Assembly (NCBI GenBank): GCA_965235115.1
Contig: OZ249438.1
Span: 42,904,001 to 42,968,000 of the forward strand
Source of the DNA: Laetmonice hystrix
Lineage: Eukaryota
Direction: 5' to 3'
Length of the DNA: 64,000 bases
The stretch's first letter is position 1. Every line of letters starts with the position of its first letter. Of the stretch, positions 3,001-33,000 are shown piece after piece. A program made the position numbers.

Positions 3001-6000
3001 GAGATCTGAGTGCGCGACACCGGCGGGCGGGGCGGGCGGCCTGCCCTTCGCTTCGGAGGGCGATAATAAAGGTAAACTCGGTATCTACCAGCAATCTCAG
3101 CGCCATCCTTAAACTGCAGCAGAAGAAACACCCGTCAGTTTCTTCAAGTCCTGACAACTATAGCCTACTGGCTTTCACATATCACAGCTTTTTCACATTC
3201 TTCGGGATTCTCTGTCTTTTAAGACAAGCCGTTTTCGGCCTACCGCACACGAGTTCATAGGCTGCTTCACTGTTCTCCCGCTAGGGGGCTGTGTGTCAGC
3301 TCTGTGCCGCTAGGTGGCAGCTCCATGATAGAGGGCGCTTTGAGAGGTCGTTTATTTTCATCTCATATCTTTGTATTTCCGCGTTATTTGTCTATAAAAG
3401 TTAATTCCAAATCTGAAGTATGGGAAGATGAGTGCGTAAAACAACTCTTTAATATCATACGGAACTCTAGAAGGCGTCCACCCACCACTGACATAGCAGG
3501 CCTCTTTAGATATTGTCTGGAAGTGGTCCTTTATGAAAACACCAACTTTGAGTCACTACCAAACCGGTCTAATAGCGGTTCTCGTTCCCGTCGCTAGGTG
3601 GCTAGAAACTAGCCACCTAGTGAGGGTAGTGGGAACCAGTCTACTCTACTTCCGGAAAAAAAATCCAAGTGTTGAACACGCTGAACAAACTCCAAAGTCA
3701 AAGACGATAGGGCTGCCTAAGGTATGTATGGATGTTATATTTAAAATGGACCCTAGGTACAGGAATCTGTATTGTTTTGAGTACCTACGAGGTCTAAATT
3801 GTATACGGAATATGGAGTTCGAATGCAAAATATAGTGACACTAACTCACTGGCACTGCGTATCCAGATAGGTAGCCTTGATCATCGCGCCCCCTGTTGGG
3901 CCAGCATAGGCATGATAGGGCCGGGCCCTACCTACGGCTACGCAGTCTTATCATAGAGTGTAGGGGGGGGCCTCGGGTGGCCGAGTGGTCAAAGGTGCTG
4001 GCTCATGACACCTAGGACCATCGCCTCACACCGCTGCGGTCCGGGTTCGATCCCCGGCCAGGGCTGCATGTGTGAAAGGTTTGTCAGTCAGTTCCTTCCC
4101 GAAGGTCGGTGGTTTCCTCCGGGCACTCCGGTTTCCTCCACCAAGAAAAACTGACTTTCATCATCATCTTCACCGCCGTGATATGACCCTGGCTGTTGCA
4201 AGGCGTAAAACCCCAAATACCCACCCATAGAGTGTAGGTCTTACAGTCTATGCTCATTGCATAACAACACAGTCTGTGCCAAATACTTTTTTTAGTACTA
4301 GACTGACGGGCCCCTCCCCCCCCCCCCCCCCCATCTTTTCACTAGACTCAAAATGAGCTCCTAAGCCAGGCTAGGGCTAAGCAAGTGAAACAAAACACAT
4401 TCATGGGGGAGAACACATTCATGCCATGGAGGAGAGGGGACCCTCCCACTGCACTGGCAGGGTCAAGGGGTCTCCCTTGAAAAAAAAATTTCAGGCTCCC
4501 AATAGGCAAATTCATTTGAGACCCTCCTTATACCTTTTTTTGCCTCGGCTACCTCCTTTTTTTGATCGCTTTTCTTGCCGGCAGTACCGACCGGTTGTTT
4601 ATGTGCGTTGTTGGGTGTTGATTTCGGAGATTTGGAAACCTTTATATGCCATAATATGGAAAAGGAAAAAAAGAGGCGATTTTGACTTTCAGACTGGCGG
4701 GCTCATGCAGCCAGTGCTTTCGCTAGCCCCCCACAATTTCTACTAGACTCGGGCTTCAGGCTAGCGGCTAACGTCGCAGACTGTAACAACTATAAGGTGT
4801 TATGTTTATAGTGACTAGTAAGTTCCTAAGTCGCACCTGGTGCATGTCTCCCTCCCTCTCCGTCCCTCCCTCGATATTAAACTCCATGTTTTCTGTTGGT
4901 TAGATTGGTCCACTGAGCCTGAGGTCGTGATGTCTCCAGTACCAGCCAACAATAACCGGGACCCAGACAAACAGCAGGGCCAGGAGGTGAGCGGAGGTGA
5001 TGCGCCACAGTTTGTGGTGGCCAACAGTGAGTCTGACTCGGATGGAGACGATGATGGTTACAGCGGGTACCAACTCCTGCCCCAGGATCCTGATGGTGCC
5101 GTGGATGATGACGCAGAGAACCCTGGCAGTGTTAACCAGGTTATCATGGACACACTGGATGATCAGGATATGATGGAGGCAGTTTCAGCACAGGTCAGGT
5201 TGCACAACATCTAACGTTATTGTGGCCTTTTTGTTTATTCATGGACACATCTGAAAAAACTTGACTCCATAGAAATATTATTTCGTGCGGAAATTCAGAT
5301 TATTGAGATGAATTTAGTTCGCATAAATGTCTAGTAACATTCCATTATTATGTCATCAAATGTTCATACATGCACCATGTTTTTGTCTTCTTTAAGTGCA
5401 GATCAGGGTTCCTTATTCATTTAGGAATGAACTATGAATTATGTCTCTAGTCTTGTGTTTACATCTTAGAATCAAGAAGAACCAGTTGAAGCTGGCATAT
5501 CTGACCGAACTGAATTATGGAACACACCTTCCACACCTAGGACCTTACCAATGGACCAAGGTAGCTGCAAAACCCATCTCTTGGCAACTAGCAGGAGGAG
5601 TCACTAACATTCTTAGATCCAACAGATCCAACTGTAGATGGAGTTACATCTCAGTACCCAGTAAAGATTTCTCAAATTAGGACAGGAGATTTGCAGAAAA
5701 TTGTCGCAGCAGTTCATTATTCTGTCTCTTCCTCTGCTTATAAAAAAAACGAAGAGATCCTTATCAACTGAAGTGAACTAAAGTGTACCTATGTAAACAG
5801 TCTCGGAGTGGCATTAAAATAACTAAGTCCTATAGGCTAACTGCAGGCTATGATAAAATTGTTGATTTAATATATTTATTTTCATTGCAGATAAAGTGGA
5901 TAAAATCCGAGCAGCCATGTCTGGGTTCAGTTTACCAGCTACTGCACAACCTGCCTGGGCTGACAACATTCCTGAGACAGAGTGGAAACAACTGGTGATG

Positions 6001-30000: not shown

Positions 30001-33000
30001 TAACTGGACCTCCGAGGTAACCGTGTACTTATCACACTATCCCACCAACCAACCAACATCAGCGATATTCATCATTTGTAAGACTTGTTTTATTCTTCTA
30101 AAACGTCAGCAGTGTGATCGTGTCCTTCAGCAACTTAAATTCGGTTTAAAATGTGATTTCCAAGTAAAGAGTGCGAGGTGGTAGTCGTATATTGGCAGTC
30201 TATCACTGGTAAGTCCGACTTTGTGATTTGCTCGAAACCTCGTGCACTAGACTGGCAGTGGGCTGAGGGCCGCGGCCTGCACCACCTCTTGGGTCACCCA
30301 GGGGTTGTGCAGGGGGTGCCAACTACACGGGAACAGGTCTGTTGAGTCTAACATGTACTACAATTTGCAGCATACAAGAGAACCGACTAAGGTGAGGACG
30401 TAAGGTCCTGAGAACTCAGGGCGACATGCCGTCACAAAGAAGGGCGTCGTCAGGAAGATGATCCCAGGTTTACGGTGACAGTCACGGGTACAGTGTGCAA
30501 TGGATACCATGCATGACTCTCTGCCCCCGCACGTGGACGGCCTCCCTGCATTAAGTACGACCAGCCAACAGACTGAGCGCTGTCCCGGACGGAGTAGAGA
30601 GCAGGGGTCGGTACCTTGCCGAATGGTGTCGTACACACGTTTCAGGACAATTCCCGCAGTCATGGTACAGGCCTGCTGTCGTAGAGTAAGGCCCCTGACC
30701 AGGACAATTCCCGCAGTCATGGTCCAGGCCTGCTGTCGTAGAGTAAGGCCCCTGACCAGGACAATGGCGACCGGGGTATCTCAACACATGCTGCCCAACC
30801 CCACGTGGCTTGTGGTGCTGTCTTTGCCAAGACGAACTCTAGCATCGCCACCATTACTGAATCTCTGGCTGCTCCAACCGAGCTTCACCAATTAGAGCAT
30901 CTGGTGGCACAGATGTTTCTATCGAAGTGTTGGGTTTATATACAAAATTACAAAACCTGGACCTCTTCAAAATGTTGAGAAAATCTCTGCAGATTATCTC
31001 GAGGACTAGTAACTGGATTTACATGTAGCTAGGGGCTACAAGGGTTACCAGGAATCTCAGCCTGCTATCTCACTGTGAAACTTTTGGGAGGAAGCAGGCA
31101 CTTGGATCATTGCCTGAACGGCCATCAACATTACTGTTTCCCTCCTTCAAATTGAACGCCTTGCTTGGTCAATGATCAAATGAGGATTTCCAAATGTAAG
31201 GTACAGGTACAGTCAGCTGTGCCATAAGATATCTTTACTCAGGCAAAAGTCTCGGCTCAAGAGGGAAAGCATGAAGGAAGGATAAGTTGAGGTATTATGA
31301 CATGCGAGCCAGATTGAAGCATATGAAGACGTAGGCAAGGGAGACGAATATTTGTAAGCGTCAAGTCTGCTTCTGAAAACAGAATGTGTGAAAAGATAGC
31401 GCCACCTTCTGGCAGCCGTTCTCCTTCAGTTATACTGTCGTGTTTCATACAAAAATAAATGGCTACCATTGTTGAGTGTCGTACCACTTAGAACATTTAC
31501 AGATCACAAACATGGGCATTGATGAAATGTTGGTCCTCGTGCTCCGATTACCAAGTTTATCATTGTTGATTCGTAGAAAAGTTTATCATTGTTGATTCGT
31601 AGAAAAGAAGACGTAGGATAAAATGAAATTGAGCAAGAGTTGAGAGACTGATCGTAGCATCCTGTGACTGAACAGTGGTCACAGGGTAATGGGTGACCAC
31701 TCCGCCCAGATGGTCATTACTAGCTTTAAGGTGCCATGTGATTAAGCCGGGAGTCGCCCTGCTGCCAAAATGTAGATATAAACAGGTCAACCGTAAATCA
31801 TTTAGCTACAAGCAAACAATGACATGCTTGTTGTATGATCGGTCTTGCATTATGCACAATGTCGGTTCTTAGTCTGTCAGATGTGAACAAAGTTGGGGGA
31901 AATGAAATTAGTCTTTGCAGAAAGCGAGGTTTCAAAATGCTTTAAAAGCCATGTTAGGAAACCTGCAATGTTGGAGGTGGAAGGCACACAAATCCGAGTT
32001 TAAGACACTTGCATGCATTCCTTTTTATTTGCATGAATTCGTTTCATTCTTGCTTATTTTCACTTTAATTCTACATTTTAGAGTCATTGTATTATTATTA
32101 CGTTCACCTCTAAGTTCTACATTATCTCACTGCATGCTTAATGCGCAGTATTAACCGCATGGGTTTTCCATTGACTATTTTTTCTTTGCATGTGCTTTAA
32201 CAGGTGCAAAAGAAACGGAACAAAGAAAAGCCACTGCTACGCCGCAAGTCTGAGCTGCCCCATGACAACTACACAATAAAAGCACTGGAGACTCACAAGC
32301 GGCCGGATGATTATCTGCCTACCAACACGGAGAATAGTTAAACGTAGCCTTGCGTCGTTCTGCTGCTGCTGCTGCCGAGCGGCAGCCAGCCCGCCCACCA
32401 CTAGGGACGGTAGCAGGGGCTATCGACAGAGCCGTCATAGAGCTGACCACTGACCCTGCCCGCCCGCTCATCGCACTCTTACCTGCATACCTACCTGCCC
32501 TGCCTGTTGCCGTTCTATACCTTGTGTGCTGTGCACCGCTCGGTATAGGCTGGCAGAAGCCTCACCAGAAGCAAACACTAGTATTAGAAGCAAAATGCCT
32601 TCTTTTTGGTTCTTAAGTACAACCTGCAACTTGTCTTTTTTTTTCTGTATGTGATCGCCTAGATGAAATATGTATTGGTCAATGTATTATTTCTATAAAT
32701 AGGAGTAGAGTGAGCGTGTATGTACGTGTGTGTATAGGCCGTGCATATATGTGCACCCACCCACGGTTGTAGCGGGGGTTTCCAGCCGTCGTGCAGTCAG
32801 CTCCAGCAGTCGGTCGCGCAGAACATAAAGTCACCAATCGCAGCCGACACTTGTATCAGTTAACAAACGCACCCTGCTCAGCGGCCAACGCATCATAGCA
32901 TATCAGAAACTACAGGCTAGTTTCATTTTTTTTGTGTTTTGACAATCAATTGACATTTTGTAAAGTTAGATTGTGATCACTTGATGCTACAGTAGATTAT

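What the first reader, a model, noticed from the sequence alone, without database searches (positions are those of the whole stretch)
4930..32341. MEA1 directly next to a PPP2R5D-type gene in an invertebrate: possible ancient microsynteny
Seen: MEA1 ends at 6072 and B56 starts at 8769 with no recognisable gene between them. Known: human MEA1 and PPP2R5D are neighbours on 6p21.1, tail-to-tail with overlapping 3' ends. From memory (verify), MEA1 was once proposed to be a mammal-specific creation at that locus. Here the pair is in tandem with MEA1 upstream. Inference: the linkage predates the protostome-deuterostome split and survived a local rearrangement, hinting at a regulatory constraint on a gene of unknown function.
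Basis: partly seen in the sequence, partly recalled or inferred. Interest (0 to 1): 0.65.

Follow-up and report, generated by a model that had tools for sequence, protein, structure and literature searches.

The report
MEA1 beside B56 phosphatase gene
In this invertebrate genome a small gene for an adaptor-assembly chaperone (MEA1) sits just upstream of a PP2A regulatory-subunit gene, the same pairing known in mammals, so the neighbourhood is probably very old but is an ordinary case of retained gene order.

Summary
A three-exon MEA1 orthologue (4930-6072, +) lies 2,696 bp upstream of a B56 gene of at least 15 exons (8769-32341, +). Nothing recognisable lies between them.

The B56 gene belongs to the gamma/delta subfamily. 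Its core scores slightly nearer human gamma. Its N- and C-terminal extensions are delta-like. It is best read as a co-orthologue of PPP2R5C and PPP2R5D, not a strict PPP2R5D orthologue.

Two other species appeared in both my MEA1 and B56 hit lists, and both show the same pairing:
- Patella caerulea: consecutive locus tags SNE40_009533 and SNE40_009534.
- Lingula anatina: both genes on a 96,543-bp scaffold, with accessions two apart.

A preprint passage gives the mammalian arrangement. Inheritance of the pairing from the bilaterian ancestor is therefore the most likely reading. Basal deuterostomes, arthropods and cnidarians could not be checked here. Orientation differs from mammals.

The "regulatory constraint" idea is untested. 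"Unknown function" is out of date: a 2026 paper shows MEA1 is a two-handed AP1 assembly chaperone, and both motifs are present here. MEA1 is not mammal-specific; the hit lists include named records from a sponge, arthropods, echinoids, a mollusc and a brachiopod.

This is a new example of a known phenomenon and of modest interest.

The parts
4930..5193 (+). MEA1 exon 1 (88 codons). Acidic N-terminal 'hand' carrying the YQLL tyrosine motif.
   Evidence: First ATG of the ORF, GT donor after 5193. 45 of 110 family proteins align here by tblastn, many from their residue 1. Y and L of the motif are invariant in a 9-sequence alignment.
5470..5560 (+). MEA1 exon 2 (30 codons + 1 base), carrying ELWNTP.
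   Evidence: AG/GT borders; it is needed to keep E1 and E3 in frame. A xW..P/T motif sits at the same place in 11 of 24 aligned family members, counted by eye. No tblastn or Pfam hit of its own.
5891..6072 (+). MEA1 exon 3 including the stop. C-terminal 'hand' (IRAAM...LP...PAWA...W).
   Evidence: Pfam PF06910 at 46.3 bits, cut-off 27. phmmer found 57 proteins at E<=1e-3. M, L, P, P, W, A, W are invariant.
6073..8768 (.). Intergenic gap of 2,696 bp (MEA1 3' end, B56 5' flank).
   Evidence: 0 Pfam families for 5 ORFs, 0 Rfam matches, 0 tRNAs.
8769..9461 (+). B56 exons 1-3 (8769-8795, 9014-9082, 9293-9461), encoding the delta-like N-terminal extension.
   Evidence: Borders and phases. E3 matches only the human delta chain 8u1x_B, residues 60-106, E 3.3e-10. 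Colinear with Patella, Biomphalaria and Lingula proteins. E1 and E2 are weakly supported.
22970..28395 (+). B56 core exons 4-13 (22970-23169, 23678-23788, 25238-25330, 25937-26067, 26262-26321, 26537-26699, 26993-27043, 27460-27579, 27790-27914, 28294-28395).
   Evidence: Pfam PF01603 colinear. Borders and phases. tblastn. PDB comparisons.
28789..28861 (+). B56 exon 14 (EKEKLKEREEVW...).
   Evidence: tblastn HSPs with Patella, Biomphalaria and Lingula proteins, E 0.003 to 1.6e-5. AG/GT seen in the sequence printed.
32204..32341 (+). B56 last exon with the RRKSELP tail and stop.
   Evidence: Delta chain 41.6 bits, long gamma chain 31.5 bits. tblastn at 65-76% identity. Further optional exons between 28862 and 32203 were not sought.

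Best explanation
Two ordinary, separately transcribed housekeeping-type genes lie in tandem.

The first gene is MEA1. In human cells MEA1 is a disordered two-handed chaperone. Its N-terminal tyrosine motif holds the AP1 mu1 subunit and its C-terminal helix holds beta1 until the adaptor is assembled.

The second gene is the single invertebrate B56 regulatory subunit of PP2A of the gamma/delta type.

Their adjacency is most likely inherited from the bilaterian ancestor and retained in lophotrochozoans and in the PPP2R5D paralogon of vertebrates. At least one local inversion must have occurred, because the pair is tandem here and convergent in mammals.

I think retention is mainly passive. The spacer is short, and these lineages reshuffle gene order slowly. 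MEA1 may also be a small bystander in the 5' regulatory territory of B56.

Shown here: the gene models, the orthology, and adjacency in this window, in Patella caerulea and in Lingula anatina.
Inferred: common descent of the linkage, and why it has persisted.
For: Gene identity.

B56 subfamily. In 5 of 5 core exons the best PDB chain is human gamma. Delta outscores alpha and epsilon in 4 of 5. The N-terminal extension matches delta only. The tail scores delta above long gamma.

MEA1 motifs. YQLL aligns with vertebrate YQPL, with Y and L invariant in 9 of 9 sequences. IRAAM aligns with vertebrate VKRTM, with M invariant in 9 of 9. The function of these motifs comes from PMC12923701, section 10, read in full.

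Synteny elsewhere.
- Patella caerulea MEA1 is SNE40_009533. Its B56 is SNE40_009534. Both are on a contig of 80,400,781 bp.
- Lingula anatina MEA1-like is XP_013389126.1. Its B56 isoforms are XP_013389128.1 to XP_013389132.1. All are on a contig of 96,543 bp.
- These were the only 2 species present in both my MEA1 and B56 lists, so 2 of 2 testable species show the pairing.

Mammals. A passage in the Discussion of bioRxiv 10.1101/2025.08.05.668783 describes the Klhdc3-MEA1-PPP2R5D overlapping complex as conserved in human and mouse. The title of Ohinata 2002 appears in a reference list.
Against: - Only two independent lineages, lophotrochozoans and mammals, carry the weight.
- For Patella and Lingula, adjacency is inferred from tag and accession order and from equal contig length. 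I did not see coordinates, and orientation and distance are unknown.
- XP_013389127.1 was not seen and could be an intervening gene.
- A second, near-identical Lingula MEA1 (XP_013383319.1, contig 732,987 bp) has no B56 record on its scaffold in my lists.
- Orientation differs from mammals. That fits an inversion but also fits independent juxtaposition.
- By my own estimate, not a tool result, scrambling genes within conserved chromosomes of about 1,000 genes would leave tens of shared neighbour pairs by chance genome-wide.
- No KLHDC3-like partner was recognised in the 4.9 kb upstream of MEA1.
Confidence: 0.7

Rival explanations
1. The pair is held together by selection. Either B56 regulatory elements lie in or around MEA1 (a regulatory block with MEA1 as bystander), or the two genes are co-regulated because the AP1 chaperone and PP2A-B56 act in a common pathway.
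For: The pair persists across Mollusca and Brachiopoda and in mammals. The spacer is short, 2,696 bp. In mammals the locus is described as a tightly overlapping, co-expressed complex.
Against: No conserved non-coding sequence, expression or chromatin data could be examined. Orientation is not conserved, which rules out a shared promoter or a fixed 3' overlap. No paper linking the two genes by synteny was found.
Confidence: 0.2
2. The adjacency arose independently, by chance, in vertebrates and in lophotrochozoans. The two genes merely share an ancestral chromosome.
For: The orientation differs (tandem here; convergent in mammals, inferred and from recall). Only one deuterostome group is documented.
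Against: For a named pair, the chance of being immediate neighbours is about 2 in 1,000 even within one linkage group (my estimate). The pairing is stable across at least two lophotrochozoan phyla.
Confidence: 0.12
3. The upstream gene is not a true MEA1 orthologue and only shares a short motif.
For: E1 and E2 match no Pfam family on their own. Identity to the best relatives is low: 29-41% in E1 among the top five.
Against: E3 exceeds the Pfam cut-off. 43 family proteins align colinearly to both E1 and E3. Length (178 codons by arithmetic), acidic make-up and both functional motifs match the family.
Confidence: 0.02

Closest known systems
Mammalian Klhdc3(Peas)-Mea1-Ppp2r5d overlapping gene complex (Ohinata et al.; described in a passage of bioRxiv 10.1101/2025.08.05.668783)
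   Same: MEA1 is the immediate neighbour of a gamma/delta-type B56 gene.
   Different: Here the genes are in tandem with a 2.7-kb gap and no 3' overlap. No KLHDC3-like gene was recognised within 4.9 kb upstream. The B56 gene predates the gamma/delta split.
Human MEA1, bi-handed AP1 assembly chaperone (Wan et al. 2026, PMC12923701)
   Same: Small acidic protein. It has an N-terminal YxxPhi motif and a C-terminal helix followed by LP...PAWA...W.
   Different: YQLL replaces YQPL. I-R-A-A-M replaces V-K-R-T-M: two conservative changes plus T to A, as in all 7 invertebrate sequences aligned. Binding to AP1 was not tested.
Human B56 delta (PPP2R5D, PDB 8u1x) and B56 gamma (PPP2R5C, e.g. 2npp, 9mf5)
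   Same: The core repeats score 63-103 bits per exon against both. The N-terminal extension and the RRKSELP tail match delta.
   Different: The core is marginally closer to gamma in 5 of 5 exons. Public annotations of the mollusc orthologues use 'gamma-like' and 'delta-like' interchangeably.
Conserved bilaterian microsyntenic gene pairs (as catalogued by Irimia et al. 2012 and Simakov et al. 2013; recalled, not read here)
   Same: Orthologous neighbours shared between lophotrochozoans and vertebrates.
   Different: I do not know whether this pair is in those catalogues; their supplements were closed. Orientation is not conserved.

Membership tests
MEA1 (Pfam PF06910) | Match to the family profile above the curated cut-off | tested here: met
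   46.3 bits against cut-off 27, E 7.9e-12, on the E3 ORF.
MEA1 (Pfam PF06910) | N-terminal tyrosine motif (human Y70-Q71-x-L73) that binds AP1 mu1 | tested here: met
   YQLL in E1. Y, L and the following Q are invariant in 9 of 9 aligned sequences. The role of the motif is taken from PMC12923701.
MEA1 (Pfam PF06910) | C-terminal V-K-x-T-M motif that binds AP1 beta1 | tested here: inconclusive
   The window has I-R-A-A-M. M is invariant; V to I and K to R are conservative. T to A is shared by all 7 invertebrate sequences in the alignment.
MEA1 (Pfam PF06910) | Binds and stabilises AP1 mu1 and beta1 | not testable with these tools
   No AP1 subunits of this organism were at hand. No complex prediction was run.
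PP2A B56 (Pfam PF01603), gamma/delta subfamily | Colinear match to the B56 profile | tested here: met
   9 of 10 ORF pieces hit, covering profile positions 6-394 of 413; 8 exceed the cut-off.
PP2A B56 (Pfam PF01603), gamma/delta subfamily | Closer to gamma/delta than to alpha/epsilon | tested here: met
   Gamma is the best PDB chain in 5 of 5 core exons. Delta outscores alpha and epsilon in 4 of 5; the exception is E7. No tree was built, because that would need the joined model.
PP2A B56 (Pfam PF01603), gamma/delta subfamily | Delta-type N-terminal extension and RRKSELP C-terminal tail | tested here: met
   E3 hits only delta 8u1x_B residues 60-106. The tail scores delta 41.6 bits against long gamma 31.5 bits.
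Ancient (bilaterian) microsyntenic pair | Orthologues adjacent in protostomes | tested here: met
   This window, plus Patella caerulea with consecutive locus tags, plus Lingula anatina on one 96,543-bp scaffold. Adjacency in the latter two is inferred from identifiers, not coordinates.
Ancient (bilaterian) microsyntenic pair | Orthologues adjacent in deuterostomes beyond mammals, and in outgroups | not testable with these tools
   No eukaryotic genome collection was available. Mammals are covered only by a literature passage.
Ancient (bilaterian) microsyntenic pair | Conserved relative orientation | tested here: not met
   The pair is tandem here. It is convergent in mammals, inferred from the bidirectional MEA1-Klhdc3 promoter and from recall.
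Mammalian Klhdc3-Mea1-Ppp2r5d overlapping complex | KLHDC3 head-to-head with MEA1 | tested here: inconclusive
   Only 4.9 kb lie upstream. Three ORFs there gave no Kelch or other credible Pfam hit. Short exons could have been missed.
Mammalian Klhdc3-Mea1-Ppp2r5d overlapping complex | 3' ends of MEA1 and the B56 gene overlap | tested here: not met
   Same strand, with a 2,696-bp gap between the MEA1 stop and the B56 start.

The most novel reading that the evidence does not exclude
MEA1 and the gamma/delta B56 gene form a neighbour pair conserved across bilaterians, or even across animals, and kept together by selection. The cause would be that the AP1 assembly chaperone and PP2A-B56 are regulated as a unit, through shared regulatory territory or co-expression. 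The genomic linkage would then point to an unrecognised functional tie between AP1 biogenesis and PP2A-B56 signalling.
Probability: 0.15. Interest if true: 0.55.

Novelty: new member of a known kind. Interest (0 to 1): 0.35.

Why it matters
If the linkage is ancestral, it adds one well-defined pair to the catalogue of deeply conserved gene neighbourhoods. It would also settle that MEA1 was not created at the mammalian locus. MEA1 now has a known function, so a selected linkage to a PP2A regulatory subunit would suggest a testable connection between adaptor assembly and phosphatase control. Without such evidence, this is an ordinary retained neighbourhood.

Tried and rejected
- A word-index search with MEA1 E3 for longer proteins found nothing. 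The exhaustive phmmer job replaced it.
- The third cluster look-up returned only unnamed records, so it added no species.
- Searches for a paper on MEA1/PPP2R5 synteny found none that treats it or no papers at all.
- Searches for the recalled 'transposon-mediated gene formation in mammals' paper found nothing. That claim rests on recall only.
- PMC2447278 was listed for 'male-enhanced antigen', but a find in its held text gave 0 occurrences.
- PMC12922316 held only the FEBS Letters reference.
- Pfam scans of 15 ORFs outside the two genes gave no hit above a cut-off. The weak hits (SHLD1_C, Usp-48, TcdA1_RBD_3 at E 0.007-0.16) are taken as chance.
- The Atlas search of ORF 475-669 (-) gave only a below-recognition MAP65/ASE1 lead.
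- The nearest taxon could not be fixed. Summed per-exon B56 scores are nearly equal for Lingula, annelids and molluscs, so I say only 'lophotrochozoan-like'.
- Not used: structure prediction, complex prediction and fold search, because no binding or fold claim is made.
- Not used: genome contigs, which holds bacteria and archaea only.
- The spliced models were searched exon by exon only. The joined proteins were never built, searched or put in a tree.
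Full report
**The window.** It is 64,000 bases with one N run at 53442-53593, which I left untouched. Nothing in it looks human. The best B56 matches are mollusc, brachiopod and annelid proteins.

**MEA1 gene model.** Reading the sequence and checking borders and phases exon by exon gives three exons on the + strand:
- E1 4930-5193;
- E2 5470-5560;
- E3 5891-6072.

Every internal border is AG/GT. The frame closes only when the 91-nt E2 is included. By arithmetic the model has 178 codons.

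**MEA1 identity.**
- The ORF holding E3 matches Pfam MEA1 (PF06910) at 46.3 bits against a cut-off of 27. E1 and E2 alone match no family.
- An exhaustive phmmer search with E3 found 57 proteins at E<=1e-3. Most of those printed are 130-230 residues long with the match near their C-terminus.
- Named members include 'male-enhanced antigen 1' records from a brachiopod (Lingula), ticks, insects, a centipede, a limpet (Patella caerulea), a sponge (Halichondria panicea), fish, turtles and birds. Sea-urchin (Diadema) records are named only 'uncharacterized protein'.
- By tblastn, 110 of 110 family proteins hit only this locus: 43 both E1 and E3, 65 E3 only, 2 E1 only.
- The gene is therefore a MEA1 orthologue, and the family is animal-wide, not mammalian.

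**MEA1 function.** MEA1 is no longer a gene of unknown function. Wan et al. 2026 (PMC12923701) show that human MEA1 is a bi-handed AP1 assembly chaperone. I read the outline, passages and all of section 10.
- The N-terminal part binds mu1 through a YQPL motif (Y70, Q71, L73).
- The C-terminal part binds beta1 through V141, K142, T144 and M145.
[quoted passage not shown] Its Supplementary Fig. 1 was not available to me.
- In the window, E1 carries YQLL aligned to the vertebrate motif, with Y and L invariant in 9 of 9 sequences.
- E3 carries I-R-A-A-M aligned to V-K-R-T-M, with M invariant in 9 of 9. The LP...P.WA...W core is also invariant.
- Both hands are present. Binding itself was not tested.

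**B56 gene model.**
- Thirteen exons from 8769 to 28395 have AG/GT borders and consistent phases.
- A further exon lies at 28789-28861, and the last exon is 32204-32341.
- Nine of 10 ORF pieces hit Pfam B56 (PF01603) colinearly, eight above the cut-off.
- 106 of 106 B56 proteins of 480 aa or more hit 10-13 of 13 tested exons, all on the + strand.
It resembles the N-termini of the Patella and Biomphalaria proteins printed. E2 is weakly supported. E3 is solid.

**B56 subfamily.** I compared exons one at a time with solved structures.

| Exon | gamma (bits) | delta (bits) | alpha (bits) | epsilon (bits) |
|---|---|---|---|---|
| E4 | 103.5 | 99.4 | 69.7 | 67.8 |
| E7 | 81.5 | 77.5 | 78.5 | 77.3 |
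| E9 | 94.2 | 93.7 | 73.4 | 82.8 |
| E11 | 66.9 | 66.4 | 52.6 | 59.0 |
| E12 | 64.5 | 63.6 | 56.1 | 58.2 |

- The N-terminal extension (E3) matches delta only, E 3.3e-10.
- The tail scores delta 41.6 bits against the long gamma form at 31.5 bits.
- The gene is a gamma/delta-type B56 with delta-like extensions. It is best read as a co-orthologue of PPP2R5C and PPP2R5D.
- Public names of the mollusc orthologues switch between 'gamma-like' and 'delta-like'.

**The gap.** Between the MEA1 stop (6072) and the B56 start (8769) lie 2,696 bp. Five ORFs there gave no Pfam family. The whole window gave no Rfam match and no tRNA.

**The pairing elsewhere.** No eukaryotic genome collection was available, so I used the identifiers and contig lengths that the protein tools print.
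- In Patella caerulea the MEA1 protein is locus SNE40_009533. The B56 proteins are locus SNE40_009534. Both are on a contig of 80,400,781 bp.
- In Lingula anatina the MEA1-like protein is XP_013389126.1. The B56 isoforms are XP_013389128.1 to XP_013389132.1. All are on a contig of 96,543 bp.
- These were the only two species present in both my MEA1 and B56 lists, so 2 of 2 testable species show the pairing.

Caveats on this evidence:
- Adjacency is inferred from identifiers, not from coordinates.
- Orientation and distance are unknown.
- XP_013389127.1 was not seen.
- A second, nearly identical Lingula MEA1 on a 732,987-bp scaffold has no B56 record there in my lists.

For mammals I have a passage stating that Klhdc3 shares a bidirectional promoter with MEA1 and that they form an overlapping complex with PPP2R5D. 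The passage says this is conserved between human and mouse (bioRxiv 10.1101/2025.08.05.668783, Discussion). I also have the title of Ohinata et al. 2002 from a reference list.

**Interpretation.** The pairing is stable across at least two lophotrochozoan phyla and recurs in mammals. For a named pair, chance adjacency is roughly 2 in 1,000 even within one conserved chromosome (my estimate). Under the same assumption, tens of shared pairs could still arise by chance genome-wide.
- I put 0.7 on inheritance from the bilaterian ancestor, with at least one inversion (tandem here, convergent in mammals).
- I put 0.12 on independent juxtaposition.
- Whether selection holds the pair is open, at 0.2. 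That reading nests within the first. Nothing here tests it, and the changed orientation excludes a shared promoter or a fixed 3' overlap.

**Literature limits.** Searches found no paper on MEA1/PPP2R5 synteny. They also did not find the recalled paper proposing transposon-mediated formation of Mea1 in mammals. The supplements of microsynteny catalogues, which might list this pair, were closed.

**Verdict.** It is a new example of a well-known phenomenon. The 'unknown function' and 'regulatory constraint' parts do not stand as written.

Noticed in passing
window 14368-64000 (e.g. 14368-15057, 17475-18703, 19051-19805, 43844-44682, 51077-52319, 59077-59922, 62734-64000): The window is unusually rich in minisatellites. 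TRF gives 38 rows at score >=200, with periods of 12-222 bp. Many lie inside B56 introns and across the apparently gene-poor 3' half.
   Followed up: partly
window 25519-25933, next to exon 7 at 25937: A 43-bp minisatellite (7.2 copies) ends right at the acceptor of B56 exon 7. Its unit carries near-copies of the acceptor-region sequence (TGATTGCTAG against TGATTGCAG), so a row of decoy acceptor-like sites precedes the real one.
   Followed up: no
window 27085-27362: A 36-bp tandem array (7.7 copies) fills much of the intron between B56 exons 10 and 11 and gives a long open frame that is not coding.
   Followed up: no
window 475-669 (-): A 65-codon open frame with a charged, coiled-coil-like stretch. 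It has no Pfam hit and only a below-recognition Atlas lead to MAP65/ASE1. It may be an exon of a neighbouring gene.
   Followed up: partly
window 32342-64000: No recognisable gene was found downstream of B56. The 8 ORFs scanned gave no Pfam hit above cut-off. One N run lies at 53442-53593.
   Followed up: partly
proteins P0034 / P0058 (Lingula anatina): There are two MEA1 records of 193 aa differing at 3 positions (by eye), on scaffolds of 732,987 and 96,543 bp. This is either a haplotype duplicate or a recent duplication.
   Followed up: no
proteins P0229 and P0053: An N-terminal and a C-terminal MEA1 fragment from unnamed records sit on contigs of the same length, 26,794 bp. This is probably one gene split by the gene caller.
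   Followed up: no
proteins P0001, P0007, P0014: Long proteins (1076-3409 aa) match the MEA1 E3 query in 9-13 separate stretches. They are presumably repeat proteins unrelated to MEA1. I did not examine them.
   Followed up: no
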